Below are positions 9,812 to 28,765 of a stretch of DNA of 43,253 bases, in pieces. Below the pieces are notes generated by a model. It had not been told where the DNA came from, searched no databases, and saw nothing but the letters and a program-made list of their open reading frames with translations. The first letter of the stretch is position 1; the number at the start of each line of letters is the position of its first letter. Origin of the DNA: a virus. Both the position numbers and the translations under genes were made by a program. The stretch lies in UHGV virus genome UHGV-0234047; one strand, given 5' to 3'.

Positions 9812-10474
9812 CTATGTCGGTATGCTCAACACTTGCCCCACACTTATAACATTGGGGTTTGCTATGCTATTAGCAGACGCAATTTTAGGATACTGTGCTC
9901 CGTTGCCATAGTATTTTTTTGCAATCCCCCAAAGCGTATCGCCTGATTGTACCGTATGTGTCTTATTATCGGTCACTGCCGGATTTACAGCCTCGCTATT
10001 GGCGGCTGTATCCTCTTGTTTAACCGTAGCTGTCGGGGTTTGGACCGCTATATAACGTTTACTTGCACCCTTGTACTCCATCAAGGTCAGGGATATGTAT
10101 TTATCCCCTTCCTCCCCTGCTTTTTCAATGACTTCTACGCTCTTTACCAATACTCGCATGCTGATATCGTCTGTAATGTCATTGGATGCTATAAATCTGA
10201 TAGGCTTTTTATTCTTTTGGGCCTTTTTAAACATCTTTTCATAATAGTCTGCATCTGACCTTGCGCCAGGCTCCACATACTGGTAATCCTGGCTGGGGAA
10301 CTCCGCCTCAAAACTGTATTCCTCCAGTTCGCAATAGGAAGGGATGGAGACCTGCCCTGTGCCAAGCACCTGGTAGGTCTCCACGTTTAGGTTTCGCGTC
10401 CGTTTGATTTCCTCCGGATTGGCCGGAAGCTTGTATTTCTTGCTTCCATATTTGAAATACACGGAGTATGACAT
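9812..10474 (-). CDS. LysM-domain tail protein (XkdP-like)
   Basis: C-terminal LysM motif [47 protein letters not shown]. Lies directly after the tape measure gene. Confidence 0.75.
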
Positions 10475-12441
10475 TATGCCGGCACCCCCTCTGGAGCGGT
10501 TGCAATCACATCCTTAAGCTGTTCTACCACGTGGCTCATGACACCGTCCGTATCCGCTTCCTTCGTGATTGGTCCGCTGAACTCCACCTTGATATTCGGG
10601 GCAAGGGTGTTCTGTGCAATCCTGGCCACGTAATCACGCTCCGCCAGCTTGCGCATCCACTCAATATCTTCTTTATCGTCCTTTTCAACTTTCATGGCCC
10701 CGCCTTTTCCGGTCCCTTTTACAACGGCCGGATTTCCACCCGTGGCAAACTGGTCCCAGCCCTTGTCATTGCCGCCCAAGTCCGGTACGAAACCAGAAAG
10801 AAAATTAGAAGCTTTATTACCAAGTTCGGCCCCCTTTTTATATCCTTTCGCTGTCATAGCGGATACGTCCATAAGCTCAGGCTGCTTAATGTATTCTTTC
10901 CAGCCACTTTCATCCTTGATGGATTCCATCTTGCTTTCAATGCCTGATTTAAAACCTTCAAGGCCCGATGTGATGTCTACCGTAACACCGGGAATCTTAT
11001 TGATTATATTTTCAATCGCCTTGGCCATGTTGATAACATAATCTATACAGGTCTTAGCCATGTTGAGAAAAAGCATCTGGACAGCCGCCTTTGGCTTAGT
11101 AAACACATTGCCCAGAAAATTTCCCAGCATTGCCAGCCCGTTCCATATTGGGAAAACGAATATGTTAAACAGATTGGCGGCCAGGAATCCAAACGCGCCA
11201 CCAATTAATCCGGTCGCACTTATGGATGTCCCTGCAAAATGATTGACGGCGGCCACCCCAGCATAAAATGCAGCAATCAATAGGATGATGGCCCCAATAA
11301 CCATCGTAATTGTAATATTGCAGTAAGTCAAAGCTGCATTAAGCCCATTCTGAGCCCATTCCAGCATGAATACGGCTGCACAAGCAGCCCAGTCAGCTGT
11401 CGCTTTCAATGCCATAGCCGCAACATTCTTCAACGTGGTCAGCCAGGCAATCCCCGCCGTCGCGTTGTACACCAACCAAGCCCCAGCCAGCCCCAACACG
11501 ATGGGCACAAGAATGTCCAGATGGTCTGCAACCCACCCAATCCCATCCAAAAGGGCATCAAAACCGGCCGCAGCCATATAAACCAGCCCTGTCAGATTCA
11601 TGATTGCGGCCTGCCCCATATCGGAATTAAGCATGGCGTTAGCTTTTTCAAATACTCCACCAAAAGCCTGCATACCAGCTCTCTTTATCTTGGTCCAGAC
11701 ATCCGCAAACGTCATGGGCATCTGGGCGAACTTTCCGTTAATATCATCCGCCGCGTTAAACATTGCATTCTTGATAATGTCAGCCGTAATAGCCCCGTCC
11801 GATGACAGTTCCTTTAACTCTCCTTTGGTAACGCCAAGATACTGCGATATCGCATTTGCTACCATCGGCGCATTTTCCATAATCGACCGGAACTCGTCTC
11901 CTTGAAGCTTACCTGCTGCCATTGCCTGTGTCAGCTGGAGGAAGGCCGAATCCTGTTCTCCCTGGCTGGCGCCTGATACCTTAAGGGATTTCTGTAAGAG
12001 TTCCGTAAATCCAAGAGCTTCCTCATTGCTTCCAAATGCATCGCCCGCCAGCATCTTCATTTTGGCTGTTGCGTTTGCCATCTCTACATAACTACCCCTT
12101 GACCGGTCAGCAGCAGCGAACACCGCCGCCTGTAAGGCCTTCTGCTCCTCTAGGCTTCCTGTAATCATGGAAAGGCGCGCGCTGGTATTTGTATACGTAT
12201 CCGTCAAATCCATGCCCTTCTTTGCGGCCGCCAGGCTCAACACGGTTCCGATTAGCTTAGTTAGTCCAGAATTGGCCCTGCTCGCTGCCACTCCAGTATT
12301 GCTTAACGATTGGTTATATACATCCGTTCCCCTACTTGCCTTCCTTACGGATTCCTCTGCCTTATTGGTACCTGTCACAATCTTATTAATCGTTGTGCTA
12401 TAGCCATCGAATAACTTAAACATAGCACGTAACGTTGCCAT
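10474..12441 (-). CDS. Tail tape measure protein
   Basis: 655 aa, Ala/Gly-rich, with hydrophobic central helices and the ..LQLTQAMAAGKLQGDEFRSIMENAP.. block typical of tape measure proteins. Lies downstream of the chaperone gene. Confidence 0.85.
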   Translation of the reverse strand: MATLRAMFKLFDGYSTTINKIVTGTNKAEESVRKASRGTDVYNQSLSNTGVAASRANSGLTKLIGTVLSLAAAKKGMDLTDTYTNTSARLSMITGSLEEQKALQAAVFAAADRSRGSYVEMANATAKMKMLAGDAFGSNEEALGFTELLQKSLKVSGASQGEQDSAFLQLTQAMAAGKLQGDEFRSIMENAPMVANAISQYLGVTKGELKELSSDGAITADIIKNAMFNAADDINGKFAQMPMTFADVWTKIKRAGMQAFGGVFEKANAMLNSDMGQAAIMNLTGLVYMAAAGFDALLDGIGWVADHLDILVPIVLGLAGAWLVYNATAGIAWLTTLKNVAAMALKATADWAACAAVFMLEWAQNGLNAALTYCNITITMVIGAIILLIAAFYAGVAAVNHFAGTSISATGLIGGAFGFLAANLFNIFVFPIWNGLAMLGNFLGNVFTKPKAAVQMLFLNMAKTCIDYVINMAKAIENIINKIPGVTVDITSGLEGFKSGIESKMESIKDESGWKEYIKQPELMDVSAMTAKGYKKGAELGNKASNFLSGFVPDLGGNDKGWDQFATGGNPAVVKGTGKGGAMKVEKDDKEDIEWMRKLAERDYVARIAQNTLAPNIKVEFSGPITKEADTDGVMSHVVEQLKDVIATAPEGVPA

Positions 12442-12453
12442 CTGCCCGCCTCC

Positions 12454-12633
12454 TTACATCTTCATTTTTGCGGCCTGTCTCTTTTCTTCCTTAACTCTCA
12501 AATCAATACTGGCATAGACTAGTGCACGCTCCCGCCGGCTCATAGACTCCAGAGCCGATGGGAGTAAATGGAGCTTTTGCAGGGCAAAGTGAGAATAGTT
12601 AAGTTCTGCATCGCCCTGCTCTATCAGTTTTTT
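12454..12633 (-). other. Putative -1 programmed frameshift extension of the tail assembly chaperone. Slippery heptamer A_AAA_AAC (rc of 12627-12633), then a 57-codon stop-free -1 frame ending at TAA 12454-12456, which is 12 nt before the tape-measure ATG.
   Basis: Translated by hand: ..EEAKN then LIEQGDAELNYSHFALQKLHLLPSALESMSRRERALVYASIDLRVKEEKRQAAKMKM-stop. Classic G/GT-type arrangement of tailed phages. Confidence 0.55.
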
Positions 12634-13025
12634 GCTTCTTCAATGTCGTCATTGATATCTTTATCAAGTCCAGACAGCTCCTGTACTTCCTGCATGAGCT
12701 CGGCATACTCCCCGATATACAGCATTTTGGTTAATAACTTTGCCTCGCCGATTACACCGTACGCTTTTTGCAGCTCATCACTTTTTAAGTCTGGCTCAAC
12801 TACGGCTGCCGCAACTAATTCCTGATTATATGCTACCCTGTCAAAGTATTCGACACCCTTTTTATCCTTTTTTGTGTGCTTGCGTATAATCTGTTCGTTC
12901 TCATCCTGGCCAATTGGTCGAATGACAAACGGAACTGTTTTCCCGTTTTCCTGGAATCGGTCAGACACACATACTTTCCTGTTTTCTGCCTTTATAGGAT
13001 TTAAGAATGCTTTTAAACTGCTCAT
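12624..13025 (-). CDS. Tail assembly chaperone (XkdN-like), 0-frame product
   Basis: 133-aa acidic protein between the tube gene and the tape measure gene. RBS AAAGGGG. Confidence 0.6.
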   Translation of the reverse strand: MSSLKAFLNPIKAENRKVCVSDRFQENGKTVPFVIRPIGQDENEQIIRKHTKKDKKGVEYFDRVAYNQELVAAAVVEPDLKSDELQKAYGVIGEAKLLTKMLYIGEYAELMQEVQELSGLDKDINDDIEEAKN

Positions 13026-13043
13026 ATTTCATTACCCCTTTCG

Positions 13044-13076
13044 TCAAAAAAAAAGAGAGGTCAACTCCCCTCTCTT
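13044..13076 (-). terminator. Rho-independent terminator/attenuator after the tail tube gene
   Basis: 8-bp stem AAGAGAGG / CCTCTCTT with an 8-nt loop, followed on the minus strand by T9 (rc of aaaaaaaaa at 13044-13052). Confidence 0.7.
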
Positions 13077-13551
13077 ACCTCATATTTTCTGGAAGCACGT
13101 AACTCTCCAGCTCGTCAACATCATCAAATGTAAAATCGGAATCCGTTGTGTTTAAATCCTCGCTTCCATCCTCCAGATATGCAACCGGGACTTTCGCCAG
13201 AATGCAATTACGCATCACTACAGTACGCCTGCCTATTGTGCTTCCCGTATCCTCGTTTGTGGTCTGGATGCTAATCTGGGGCGTCTTTCCTTCTTTGATG
13301 TACTGCTGGTAGATTGCCAGGGCCGCCGGGCTAACATTGTACATTGTTACAGTACCCTTTCCCTCGGCTCCAACCACTTTATGCTGCTTCATTCTGTGAC
13401 CGAGAAGCTTCTTTGCAATCACTGTAAATTCAATGTTTGCTTCGATTTTGGACAGTTCAAAAAAGTACCTATTCTGTCCATCCGTGGTTATGTATGCACT
13501 GCCTTCGCTGCCAGTCACCAGGTCGTTAATTTTTGTGTAATTTCCTGCCAT
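13075..13551 (-). CDS. Tail tube protein (XkdM-like)
   Basis: 158 aa, immediately downstream of the sheath gene. Confidence 0.8.
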   Translation of the reverse strand: MAGNYTKINDLVTGSEGSAYITTDGQNRYFFELSKIEANIEFTVIAKKLLGHRMKQHKVVGAEGKGTVTMYNVSPAALAIYQQYIKEGKTPQISIQTTNEDTGSTIGRRTVVMRNCILAKVPVAYLEDGSEDLNTTDSDFTFDDVDELESYVLPENMR

Positions 13552-13562
13552 TATGCGCCTCC

Positions 13563-14612
13563 TTATGAAAGATTAACTGTTATATAGATTTTCTCAACAC
13601 TGTCAACAGGCTGTATGGCGGCAGTCACAAGGACTGCGTCCGAATCTGTTCCGGCCGTAATTACTACATCATTCGTTTCAAAGTTCTGGATGGCCCCCAT
13701 ATTCTGGAGTGTGTTAAAATAATCTACCAACGCCGCCTTAAGAAGTGCCCGCCCATCATCGTTGTTGTTTACCTTTCCCACATAGTTACTTTCAAAAATA
13801 GTAGTGATGTCATTTGCAATATTGTCAATGGTACGGATGACCCGGTTCTTCGTGAACATCTTCCCCTTCTCCACCGTGACTGTGGTGAGGGAATTGATGT
13901 CATATACCGCTGTTACGTTCTGCGCACTGTCAGCCTTGAATATGAACTTCCCCGCCTTAATTGCTGTCTCCATCTCGGTTTTTGTCATCCTGGGGCTGAC
14001 ATCAATCGCCCCAGCATAAGTCATTCCCGTATTTGAAGTGGTAATACTTGCCCCGGCAGTTGCGCCCGCCACCCATGCGGTAGTCTCTGCTGCCGTCAAT
14101 GTTGTGCTGTCAGACATCACGACTCCCTGCGAGACATTTATAATTCCCTCGCTATCCGCTACATGATTGGCGAGGACGGCCTGGCATTTAACCCCCTCAT
14201 CGTCCCTCATAGCCTTAATCCAGGTCGCAATCGCTGCCTTGTTGGCGCTCGCTGTTTCCGGCGTTGTATCATAAGGATAGCACAGAGTGTTAAACTGCAC
14301 CGTTTTTAATTTCGTAAGCGCTGCATTAACCGCCTCTGTATTATGTGTTTTCGGCAACTTGTAAATCAATACCGTCTTAGCCTTTTTCAGCGCTTCTGCA
14401 GCCAGCTTCTTATCATCTGCTGTTGCTTTCTCTGGATATGCCTGCTCCGTAGCGGTGATGGTATACATCTGTCCATCCTTTCCTACCGTCATTTCCTGTA
14501 GGATAACTACGGTTCCCCTATCTCCCGGGGTAATGGACAATGGCTCATTTGTCCGGATATTTATGTAGGCTCCGGGCAGTACCTTGTTTTGGGATTCCCA
14601 TGTACCTGCCAT
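13563..14612 (-). CDS. Tail sheath protein (contractile tail)
   Basis: N-terminus MAGTWESQNKVLPGAYINI.. matches the conserved tail sheath start (..PGVYI..). Lies upstream of the tube gene. Confidence 0.8.
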   Translation of the reverse strand: MAGTWESQNKVLPGAYINIRTNEPLSITPGDRGTVVILQEMTVGKDGQMYTITATEQAYPEKATADDKKLAAEALKKAKTVLIYKLPKTHNTEAVNAALTKLKTVQFNTLCYPYDTTPETASANKAAIATWIKAMRDDEGVKCQAVLANHVADSEGIINVSQGVVMSDSTTLTAAETTAWVAGATAGASITTSNTGMTYAGAIDVSPRMTKTEMETAIKAGKFIFKADSAQNVTAVYDINSLTTVTVEKGKMFTKNRVIRTIDNIANDITTIFESNYVGKVNNNDDGRALLKAALVDYFNTLQNMGAIQNFETNDVVITAGTDSDAVLVTAAIQPVDSVEKIYITVNLS

Positions 14613-28162: not shown

Positions 28163-28765
28163 TCACTTTAAACTCCACCATATTTTCTGGTTCTTTCCGT
28201 ATCCAGTTGCATATATTTTTACATCCATCTTAGCCTTGGCTTTCATGAGCTCAGACCGTTTAATCCCATCATCATCCGCCCGCTGCATAAGCTCAACCGC
28301 ACTTACCTGGCCACCTTTCAGGACTTCACGTAGGAACGATTCTGCCCGGTCATATTCTGTCTGGCCAAGTCCGTCCACTACATCCTTAATCCTGGCTGTC
28401 TGCACTGTATTGGCCTGGAGCTTATTGTATATGGCCTGCTGCGAATCTGCCAATTCTGATATTTGAGTCTTGATGGATTGAAGCTCCTTAAAGATGTTTT
28501 CAAGTATCTTCACTTCCCCTCCGGATGTAATCTGGGTCTTTTCGATTCTTTCTGGCTCTATCTCTAGTTTTTCACATATCAGGTCCCGGACCGGCTCCGG
28601 TACCATATTGTTTTTCCGCAGACTGCATATATAATTTCTGGAACGTCCTATGGAGTAACCAAACTTCTCCATGGTCATACCTTTAGCCTGTATCATCAAA
28701 ATAAGCTTGTCTACATCAATCTCCACTCTGTTCAATTCCAATATCTCCCCCTTCGTGCGCTGCAT
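28163..28765 (-). CDS. HTH-containing hypothetical protein (200 aa)
   Basis: ..MTMEKFGYSIGRSRNYICSLRKN.. looks like an XRE-type HTH. The true start is probably an internal Met, because the track start overlaps the upstream gene by 50 nt. Confidence 0.45.
   Translation of the reverse strand: MQRTKGEILELNRVEIDVDKLILMIQAKGMTMEKFGYSIGRSRNYICSLRKNNMVPEPVRDLICEKLEIEPERIEKTQITSGGEVKILENIFKELQSIKTQISELADSQQAIYNKLQANTVQTARIKDVVDGLGQTEYDRAESFLREVLKGGQVSAVELMQRADDDGIKRSELMKAKAKMDVKIYATGYGKNQKIWWSLK

What the first reader, a model, noticed from the sequence alone, without database searches (positions are those of the whole stretch)
12454..12635. Programmed -1 ribosomal frameshift at A_AAA_AAC at the end of the tail assembly chaperone gene
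The 0-frame chaperone ends ..GCA AAA AAC TGA. The heptamer A AAA AAC is a canonical X_XXY_YYZ slippery site. After a -1 slip the frame stays open for 57 codons (LIEQGDAELNYSHFALQKLHLLPSALESMSRRERALVYASIDLRVKEEKRQAAKMKM). It stops at a TAA 12 nt upstream of the tape-measure ATG, inside that gene's RBS (..TAAGGAGG..). Filling precisely the gap between the chaperone and the tape measure is the conserved G/GT arrangement of tailed phages. No ATG-initiated ORF covers this interval.
Basis: partly seen in the sequence, partly recalled or inferred. Interest (0 to 1): 0.55.

Follow-up and report, generated by a model that had tools for sequence, protein, structure and literature searches.

The report
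Tail chaperone -1 frameshift site
This prophage's tail assembly chaperone gene carries a well-conserved signal that makes a few ribosomes slip back one base and add a 57-residue tail, the ordinary "G/GT" trick of long-tailed phages, which genome annotation has missed here.

Summary
On the minus strand, a 133-aa XkdN-like tail assembly chaperone (13025..12624) ends GCA AAA AAC TGA. The heptamer A_AAA_AAC (12633..12627) lies in a 16-nt overlap with a -1 frame. That frame stays open for 57 codons and stops 12 nt before the tape-measure ATG.

In 33 of 35 related loci (38-100% identity) the heptamer sits in the same phase, followed by a conserved 50-67 aa -1 extension. The other two records have one extra A and read as a single in-frame fusion. 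The loci found by sequence scan were selected with the chaperone body only.

The least-constrained codon position shifts by one base at the heptamer. A hairpin starts 7 nt downstream (dG -18.7 kcal/mol) and recurs with compensatory changes in 21 of 23 distinct relatives. No conserved start codon could express the extension separately.

This is a new, unannotated member of the known G/GT class of programmed -1 frameshifts, in a PBSX-like contractile-tail prophage (chaperone 100% identical to an Enterocloster protein). It is ordinary biology. Its value lies in annotation: several PHROG "unknown function" families are fragments of this extension. Frameshift efficiency and the ribosomal mechanism are inferred, not measured.

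The parts
13075..13551 (-). Tail tube gene (158 aa), immediately upstream of the chaperone
   Evidence: Pfam DUF2001 phage tail tube protein, 9.6e-33. The sheath gene 13563..14612 lies upstream of it (Phage_sheath_1).
12624..13025 (-). 0-frame tail assembly chaperone ORF ('G'-like product, 133 aa), including its TGA stop at 12626-12624
   Evidence: Pfam PF08890 Phage_TAC_5 (XkdN-like TAC), 2e-36. phrog_389, 4e-39. 100% identical to P0001, 'phage tail assembly chaperone [Enterocloster]'. Homologous to B. subtilis YqbN, PDB 3KLU.
12640..12642 (-). TGA stop in the -1 frame that closes that frame upstream. It limits any shift to the 16 nt at 12639..12624.
   Evidence: Frame translation.
12627..12633 (-). 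Slippery heptamer A_AAA_AAC in phase A|AAA|AAC (P-site AAA Lys, A-site AAC Asn)
   Evidence: All 7 heptamer columns are invariant in the 21-sequence alignment and show 0.0 divergence, while upstream third positions diverge 0.56. Present in phase in 33 of 35 related loci. 119 of 120 chaperone homologues end (A/V)-K-N or (A/V)-K-N-X.
12620..12626 (-). 7-nt spacer (UGAUAGA; its first three bases are the 0-frame stop)
12579..12619 (-). Predicted stimulatory hairpin (GCAGGGCGAUG...UUUGCCCUGC)
   Evidence: dG -18.7 kcal/mol, z -3.24. Top 1.8% of 48-nt windows on this strand. 21 of 23 distinct relatives have a hairpin here with z <= -2.7. 90% of cells paired against 38-54% in slid controls, and 5 of 9 pairs change on both sides.
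12457..12627 (-). -1-frame extension ('T'-like segment, 57 codons, LIEQGD...AAKMKM). Base 12627 is read twice in a tandem slip.
   Evidence: Conserved in relatives with motifs KKLIxQGD, HFALQKL and RERAFxYASIDLR. Variation peaks at third positions of the -1 frame, and the phase switches at the heptamer. Hits phrog_10943, 20560, 5646 and 33439.
12454..12456 (-). TAA stop of the -1 frame, abutting the tape-measure Shine-Dalgarno GGAGG (12453..12449)
10474..12441 (-). Tape measure protein gene (655 aa)
   Evidence: Pfam TMP_3, 1.2e-49.

Best explanation
This is a programmed -1 ribosomal frameshift of the phage G/GT type. Most ribosomes translating the XkdN-like chaperone gene stop at TGA 12626-12624 and make the 133-aa chaperone. 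A minority pause over A_AAA_AAC (12633..12627) when the hairpin 7 nt downstream (12619..12579) resists unwinding. These slip back one base and continue in the -1 frame for 57 codons to TAA 12456-12454, giving a 190-aa fusion whose junction is ...DIEEAKN-LIEQGD... if both tRNAs slip. By analogy with lambda gpG/gpGT, the shared N-terminal part would coat the tape measure protein made from the next gene. The extension would recruit the tube protein, so that tube and sheath polymerise around the tape measure. Neither product would stay in the virion. Shown here: the signal, its exact placement, its conservation, the coding status of the extension in the -1 frame, and the conserved hairpin. Inferred: that the shift is ribosomal, its efficiency (expected to be low, in the per-cent range), and the protein partners.
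For: Anatomy. Gene order is sheath, tube, XkdN-like TAC, 170-nt 'gap', tape measure, then LysM, YqbQ-like, sheath initiator and Baseplate_J.

The IMG/VR and genome loci were picked with chaperone residues 1-122 only. Of 35 related loci, 33 have A|AAA|AAC in phase, a 13-49 nt overlap and a 50-67 aa -1 extension. These include phages of Geobacillus, Clostridioides, Streptococcus, Lactobacillus, Brevibacillus and Psychrobacillus at about 40% identity. The +1 frame closes within 0-31 codons, mostly fewer than 8.

In a frame-agnostic analysis, divergence by 0-frame codon position is .25/.18/.56 upstream and .18/.49/.26 downstream, and the switch falls in the sliding window containing the heptamer.

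The heptamer is invariant although its Lys, Asn and Ala/Val/Ile codons could vary synonymously.

Hairpin evidence. One example of compensation is GCAGGGC/GCCCUGC in the window against GGAGGGC/GCCCUCC in Jimmer2.

Two records with one extra A encode exactly the predicted fusion in a single frame: EJ-1 ORF55, and P0003/L033 with ...EEAKKLIKQGD....

A_AAA_AAC is a proven low-level -1 site in an E. coli IS cluster (PMC4066793) and the predicted g-t shift site in the haloarchaeal virus HCTV-2 (PMC5009743). In the C. difficile myovirus phiCD508, the XkdN-like gp57 and the small unknown protein gp58 (presumably the neighbouring ORF) were both absent from virions by MS (PMC11948020).
Against: There is no direct evidence of the fusion protein from this or any XkdN-type phage in the literature held. 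In E. coli, A_AAA_AAC is much less shift-prone than A_AAA_AAG, because re-pairing from AAC to AAA is non-cognate, so efficiency may be very low. The hairpin arms encode conserved residues (QGD and FALQ), so part of their conservation is protein-level. The register of the hairpin shifts by 1-7 nt in the most distant relatives. Three lineages (MismyG, jlb1, AQ113) show no convincing hairpin. The structure model of the fusion was of low confidence (pLDDT 46), so it gives no structural support for a T-domain function.
Confidence: 0.88

Rival explanations
1. Transcriptional slippage. RNA polymerase adds one extra A in the A6 run, so a fraction of mRNAs encode the fusion in a single frame. The protein outcome is the same but the machinery differs.
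For: The site is a homopolymer run. Two database records carry one extra A that fuses the frames: L033 has A7 within the run, and EJ-1 has an extra A just upstream of it. Conservation of the run and of the extension fits this model equally well.
Against: Six A's is short compared with the runs used for productive transcriptional slippage in bacteria (about 9; this rests on my own knowledge of T. thermophilus dnaX and IS elements and was not checked in a held paper). The invariant C completes a canonical X_XXY_YYZ heptamer in the right phase. A hairpin 5-8 nt downstream that is conserved and covaries is the classical ribosomal stimulator, and it has no obvious role in polymerase slippage.
Confidence: 0.06
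2. The interval encodes a separate small protein, initiated on its own at ATG 12543 (29 aa) or at a non-canonical start, as many annotations imply.
For: A 29-aa ATG ORF exists with a GGAG 3 nt upstream. Gene callers have produced 44-100 aa stand-alone proteins for this segment (51 representatives), and four small PHROG families match it. B. subtilis annotates a small gene, xkzB, next to xkdO, described as 'uncharacterised' (PMC9406221).
Against: The Met is absent in phiC2, MismyG, L024, L027 and L032. Conservation and -1-frame coding constraint begin right at the heptamer, 28 codons before that ATG (windows +0..+44 and +30..+74). The GGAG-to-ATG spacing of 3 nt is too short, and in the window both elements are base-paired in a -22.9 kcal/mol hairpin. 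The called 'starts' differ from one representative to the next, and many sit at query residue 7-8. The -1 relation to the chaperone and the short overlap are universal.
Confidence: 0.04
3. The interval is a non-functional spacer, a pseudogene remnant or a sequencing error, and the open frame and heptamer are coincidental.
For: A single in-phase heptamer in a 5-codon overlap has about a 3% chance.
Against: 33 of 35 loci from different genera keep the heptamer, the frame relation and the extension under purifying selection. Four IMG/VR contigs (L007, L008, L009, L012) have a junction identical to the window's over the 9 bases before the stop, the stop and the 12 bases after it.
Confidence: 0.01

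Closest known systems
Phage lambda gpG / gpGT programmed -1 frameshift (Levin, Hendrix & Casjens 1993; Xu, Hendrix & Duda 2004, 2013, 2014; summarised in PMC5009743)
   Same: Two overlapping frames lie between the major tail or tube gene and the tape measure gene. The second frame has no start of its own. A slippery heptamer sits near the end of the first frame. The result is a short product plus a C-terminally extended fusion. The arrangement is conserved despite low protein similarity.
   Different: There is no sequence homology: the chaperone here is Pfam Phage_TAC_5 (XkdN-like). The heptamer is A_AAA_AAC, not G_GGA_AAG. A conserved downstream hairpin is predicted here. The tail is contractile (sheath plus tube). 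The extension is shorter (57 aa).
Phage P2 E / E+E' (contractile-tail phage with a G/GT-type frameshift; mentioned in PMC5009743 as having 2-3-fold higher efficiency)
   Same: Myovirus context: the chaperone pair lies between the tube and tape measure genes, with a -1 shift.
   Different: Different protein family and host phylum. The slippery sequence was not compared here (not tested).
B. subtilis PBSX XkdN / skin-element YqbN (PDB 3KLU) with the small neighbouring gene xkzB
   Same: True homologues of the chaperone (phmmer 3e-10). YqbN also ends ...EEAAKN. The gene order matches (XkdK sheath, XkdM tube, XkdN, XkdO tape measure, XkdP LysM, and so on).
   Different: The Bacillus DNA was not examined here, so the presence of the heptamer there is inferred only from the A-K-N terminus.
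IS1 insA-insB' (-1 frameshift at A_AAA_AAC) and the HCTV-2 g-t site
   Same: The same heptamer. In bacteria it is a proven low-efficiency -1 site (cluster A_AAA_AAC_1, PMC4066793). It is also predicted as the g-t shift site of a haloarchaeal siphovirus (PMC5009743).
   Different: The IS cluster has no established stimulator, whereas a conserved hairpin is predicted here. The proteins are unrelated.
E. coli dnaX (A_AAA_AAG plus downstream hairpin plus upstream SD)
   Same: An A-rich heptamer with a hairpin a few nucleotides downstream.
   Different: No upstream Shine-Dalgarno-like stimulator is seen here. The last base is C rather than G, so much lower efficiency is expected.

Membership tests
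G/GT-type tail assembly chaperone frameshift (Xu, Hendrix & Duda 2004) | Chaperone gene located between the major tail (tube) gene and the tape measure gene | tested here: met
   Tube 13551..13075, chaperone 13025..12624, tape measure 12441..10474.
G/GT-type tail assembly chaperone frameshift (Xu, Hendrix & Duda 2004) | A second open frame overlaps the chaperone's 3' end in the -1 (or +1) frame, fills the gap to the tape measure gene and lacks its own conserved start | tested here: met
   16-nt overlap and 57 codons ending 12 nt before the ATG. The only ATG ORF covers 29 aa, and its Met is not conserved.
G/GT-type tail assembly chaperone frameshift (Xu, Hendrix & Duda 2004) | A slippery sequence inside the overlap, in the correct phase | tested here: met
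   A|AAA|AAC at 12633..12627 is the only such motif in the overlap.
G/GT-type tail assembly chaperone frameshift (Xu, Hendrix & Duda 2004) | The arrangement is conserved among diverged relatives | tested here: met
   33 of 35 loci, with the other 2 fused in-frame. The coding phase switches at the heptamer.
G/GT-type tail assembly chaperone frameshift (Xu, Hendrix & Duda 2004) | Both the short and the extended proteins are made, in a fixed ratio | not testable with these tools
   Needs a western blot, MS or a reporter assay.
G/GT-type tail assembly chaperone frameshift (Xu, Hendrix & Duda 2004) | Both products are required for tail assembly and are absent from mature virions | not testable with these tools
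   Indirect support only: the phiCD508 XkdN-like gp57 and the small gp58 were not detected in virions by MS (PMC11948020).
Pfam PF08890 Phage_TAC_5 (XkdN-like tail assembly chaperone) | Match to the family profile above the gathering threshold over its full length | tested here: met
   125.3 bits against a cut-off of 27, covering profile positions 1-135 of 135.
Canonical -1 programmed ribosomal frameshift signal | X_XXY_YYZ heptamer in the 0 frame | tested here: met
   A_AAA_AAC.
Canonical -1 programmed ribosomal frameshift signal | Stimulatory RNA structure starting about 5-9 nt 3' of the heptamer | tested here: met
   7-nt spacer. Hairpin dG -18.7 kcal/mol, z -3.2. Conserved with covariation. 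Absent in 3 low-GC lineages.
Canonical -1 programmed ribosomal frameshift signal | The shift is made by the ribosome, not by RNA polymerase, and depends on the heptamer and the structure | not testable with these tools
   Needs mutagenesis and cDNA sequencing.

The most novel reading that the evidence does not exclude
The whole XkdN/YqbN chaperone family of Firmicutes contractile-tail phages and PBSX-like elements may rely on one invariant shift site, A_AAA_AAC. By E. coli rules this site is a poor one, because tRNA-Asn must re-pair non-cognately. If efficiency in these hosts depends on the state of tRNA-Asn (for example queuosine modification or charging level), or on P-site-only slippage before AAC is decoded, then the ratio of chaperone to fusion, and hence tail assembly, would be tuned by host physiology rather than fixed. 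The data here do not exclude this, but nothing supports it directly.
Probability: 0.08. Interest if true: 0.5.

Novelty: new member of a known kind. Interest (0 to 1): 0.25.

Why it matters
The value is mainly for annotation. The 190-aa fusion is missing from the NCBI annotation of this chaperone (a 133-aa protein only) and from all but one of the 9 phage records inspected, the exception being EJ-1, whose extra A makes a single ORF. The extension is variously left blank, called as a small hypothetical ORF, or placed in PHROG 'unknown function' families (10943, 20560, 5646, 33439). The rule 'XkdN-like chaperone ending (A/V/I)-K-N on A_AAA_AAC, then read on in -1' would correct these in bulk. 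It would also give anyone engineering PBSX-, diffocin- or phage-tail-like particles from Firmicutes the full parts list. Biologically it confirms that the G/GT strategy, here with a conserved hairpin stimulator, extends to this large family of contractile-tail elements. That was expected.

Tried and rejected
- Megablast of the tail module against phage records found no match.
- NCBIfam and Pfam have no model for the extension.
- Alignment-based search for related loci failed because no stretch was conserved enough, so I used the single chaperone body instead.
- Rfam and the tRNA scan of the whole window found nothing.
- No promoter-like site lies in 12300-13200, so there is no sign of a separate transcript for the extension.
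- The AlphaFold model of the natural in-frame fusion P0003 with a 10-row alignment had mean pLDDT 46. I therefore ran no fold search and draw no structural conclusion about the T segment beyond a weak helical prediction.
- Xu et al. 2004 is not in the held library. I could not check whether XkdN-type phages were in their list.
- Literature searches pairing XkdN, YqbN or PBSX with frameshift returned nothing relevant.
- The exhaustive search with the extension alone gave 51 mostly tiny stand-alone ORFs. Its few longer hits turned out to be error-ridden read-throughs or upstream -1-frame translations, not informative fusions.
- A +1 shift is rejected because the +1 frame closes after 7 codons in the window.
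- No upstream SD-like stimulator is present in the 30 nt before the heptamer.
- Other in-phase heptamers in gene-end overlaps of the window (A_AAC_CCC and T_TTA_AAG) are judged to be chance.

Full report
**What is in the sequence**

The following is on the minus strand. A 133-aa ORF (13025..12624) ends GCA AAA AAC TGA. It matches Pfam Phage_TAC_5, the XkdN-like tail assembly chaperone, over the full profile (2e-36), and also phrog_389. It lies directly after the tail sheath gene (14612..13563) and the tail tube gene (13551..13075). It lies 182 nt before a 655-aa tape measure gene (12441..10474).

Downstream come a LysM protein, a YqbQ-like protein, a sheath initiator, Baseplate_J and a Mu gp48-like protein. 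Upstream come a tail terminator, a capsid protein and an SPP1-type portal. The window is therefore a PBSX/skin-like contractile-tail prophage. The chaperone is 100% identical to an NCBI protein named 'phage tail assembly chaperone [Enterocloster]', annotated as 133 aa only.

**The frames**

The heptamer A_AAA_AAC occupies 12633..12627 in phase A|AAA|AAC. The -1 frame is closed by a TGA at 12642-12640, so the two frames overlap for only 16 nt and the heptamer is the only slippery motif there. From the C of AAC the -1 frame runs 57 codons (LIEQGD...AAKMKM) to TAA 12456-12454. That stop abuts the GGAGG of the tape measure gene, whose ATG follows 12 nt after the stop. The +1 frame closes after 7 codons.

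**Is it more than chance?**

Within the window alone the case is only moderate. In-phase X_XXY_YYZ heptamers occur at 0.58% per codon, and 3 of the 37 long minus-strand ORFs taken as genes have one in their 0/-1 overlap. The decisive evidence is comparative.

A tblastn search with the predicted fusion found 53 phage records. Nearly all of the 40 listed matched in two pieces, meaning two frames. I then collected 26 further loci from IMG/VR and from genomes, using only chaperone residues 1-122 so that the junction played no part in the selection.

Of 35 related loci at 38-100% identity, 33 have A|AAA|AAC in the same phase, a 13-49 nt overlap and a -1 extension of 50-67 aa. They include phages of Geobacillus, Clostridioides, Streptococcus, Lactobacillus, Brevibacillus and Psychrobacillus, and prophages of Hungatella, Caproiciproducens and other Clostridia. 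The extension carries shared motifs (KKLIxQGD, HFALQKL, RERAFxYASIDLR, and often a basic tail).

The two exceptions carry one extra A, which puts both parts in one frame. They are the EJ-1 record (ORF55, 198 aa; GAAGAAAGC against GAAGAAGC in its near-twin MismyG) and a metagenome contig with A7 (P0003/L033). Both encode exactly the predicted fusion.

Among the 120 best chaperone homologues, 119 end (A/V)-K-N or (A/V)-K-N-X. B. subtilis YqbN (PDB 3KLU) ends ...EEAAKN.

**Is the extension coding, and in which frame?**

I used an ungapped, frame-agnostic comparison of 14 relatives anchored on the heptamer. Mean pairwise divergence at 0-frame codon positions 1/2/3 is .25/.18/.56 over the 230 nt upstream and .18/.49/.26 over the 147 nt downstream. 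The most variable position therefore moves from 0-frame position 3 to 0-frame position 2, which is position 3 of the -1 frame. The switch occurs in the sliding window that contains the heptamer. A protein-guided codon alignment gives the same picture, with 5149/4257/8175 differences. All seven heptamer bases have zero divergence, although the Ala/Val/Ile, Lys and Asn codons could vary.

**Stimulator**

Seven nucleotides after the heptamer a hairpin forms (12619..12579). Its dG is -18.7 kcal/mol, its z-score is -3.24 against dinucleotide shuffles, and it is in the top 1.8% of all 48-nt windows on this strand. Twenty-one of 23 distinct relatives fold a hairpin at the same place with z <= -2.7. 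Distant ones build it from different sequences: GGAGGGC/GCCCUCC in Jimmer2, GGUGGAGAG/CUCUCCACC in phiOH2, and a perfect 15-bp stem in L027.

On a 21-sequence alignment, the 9-bp outer stem is paired in 90% of cells, against 38-54% when the partner is slid by 1-3 columns. Five of the 9 pairs show changes on both sides, and no shuffle out of 500 reaches the observed covariation score.

There are caveats. The stem arms encode conserved residues. The register drifts by 1-7 nt in the most distant phages. Three lineages (MismyG, jlb1, AQ113) lack a convincing structure. No upstream SD-like element is present.

**Rivals**

- *Independent initiation of the extension* is unlikely. The only start codon gives 29 aa, and its Met is missing in several lineages. 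Coding constraint begins at the heptamer, 28 codons earlier. In the window the ATG and its too-close GGAG are paired inside a second hairpin. The exhaustive protein search with the extension found only 51 representatives among 1.84 billion proteins, nearly all 44-100 aa with inconsistent starts, which looks like a gene-calling artefact.
- *Transcriptional slippage on A6* would give the same protein. It cannot be excluded by sequence. It is disfavoured by the short run, the canonical phased heptamer and the conserved downstream hairpin.
- *Chance or error* is excluded by the conservation.

**Comparison with what is known**

Low-level -1 frameshifting that links a tail chaperone to a C-terminal extension is 'widely conserved among long tailed dsDNA phages' (PMC5009743). 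Lambda G/GT is the prototype and P2 is a contractile-tail example.

In E. coli, A_AAA_AAC is much weaker than A_AAA_AAG because AAC-to-AAA re-pairing is non-cognate. It is nevertheless a proven -1 site in an IS cluster (PMC4066793), and it is the predicted g-t site of haloarchaeal virus HCTV-2. A weak site suits a product needed in small amounts.

I found no paper in the held library that links XkdN/YqbN-type chaperones to frameshifting. [quoted passage not shown] Xu et al. 2004 is not held, so I cannot say whether this family was in their survey.

**Verdict**

This is a new, unannotated member of a well-known kind. The family-wide invariance of the heptamer and the covarying hairpin are neat and useful for annotation, but not surprising. 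What remains unmeasured is the product itself, the efficiency, and whether the ribosome or the polymerase makes the shift.

Noticed in passing
window 13051-13076 (- strand): A terminator-like hairpin plus T-run (AAGAGAGGGGAGTTGACCTCTCTT followed by T8) overlaps the stop of the tail tube gene and ends 26 nt before the chaperone ATG. It may be a partial terminator that lowers chaperone and tape-measure transcription relative to sheath and tube.
   Followed up: no
window 12529-12564 (- strand): A second strong hairpin lies inside the -1 extension (dG about -22.9 kcal/mol for the 56-nt segment). It pairs the only internal ATG (12543) and its GGAG. It is conserved in the closer Lachnospiraceae-type relatives, with a stem-perfecting change in L012 (CCGGCGGGAG to CCGAUGGGAG, which costs an R-to-W change), but not in distant phages. 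Its function is unknown.
   Followed up: partly
L001 (Streptococcus phage EJ-1, AJ609634.1) about 1800-1815; L033 1890-1900: The EJ-1 record has one extra A (GAAGAAAGC) compared with its near-identical relative MismyG, which makes ORF55 a single 198-aa chaperone-extension ORF. A Logan metagenome contig has A7 instead of A6 and TTA instead of TGA, with the same effect. Each is either a sequencing error or a genuine fusion-only variant.
   Followed up: partly
protein databases: PHROG families 10943, 20560, 5646 and 33439 ('unknown function') match the frameshift extension, so they are probably fragments of it. Separately, many XkdN-like chaperones are named 'phage portal protein' in NCBI and GenBank records (for example PVJ1, phiCDKH02 and Hungatella MAGs), which looks like a propagated misannotation.
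   Followed up: partly
window 9812-9866 (- strand) and the last 67 nt of ORF 28163-28765 (- strand): Two other in-phase X_XXY_YYZ heptamers lie in gene-end 0/-1 overlaps. A_AAC_CCC sits at the end of the LysM gene, whose -1 frame is the frame of the next gene. T_TTA_AAG sits at the end of ORF 28163-28765, with only a 6-codon -1 extension. Both are judged to be chance.
   Followed up: no
L033 975-1439; L003 (phiC2) 1239-1496: Some relatives carry an extra small gene inserted between the tube and chaperone genes: a weak SHOCT hit in L033, and the hypothetical phiC2p15. The window has only the terminator-like hairpin at that position.
   Followed up: no
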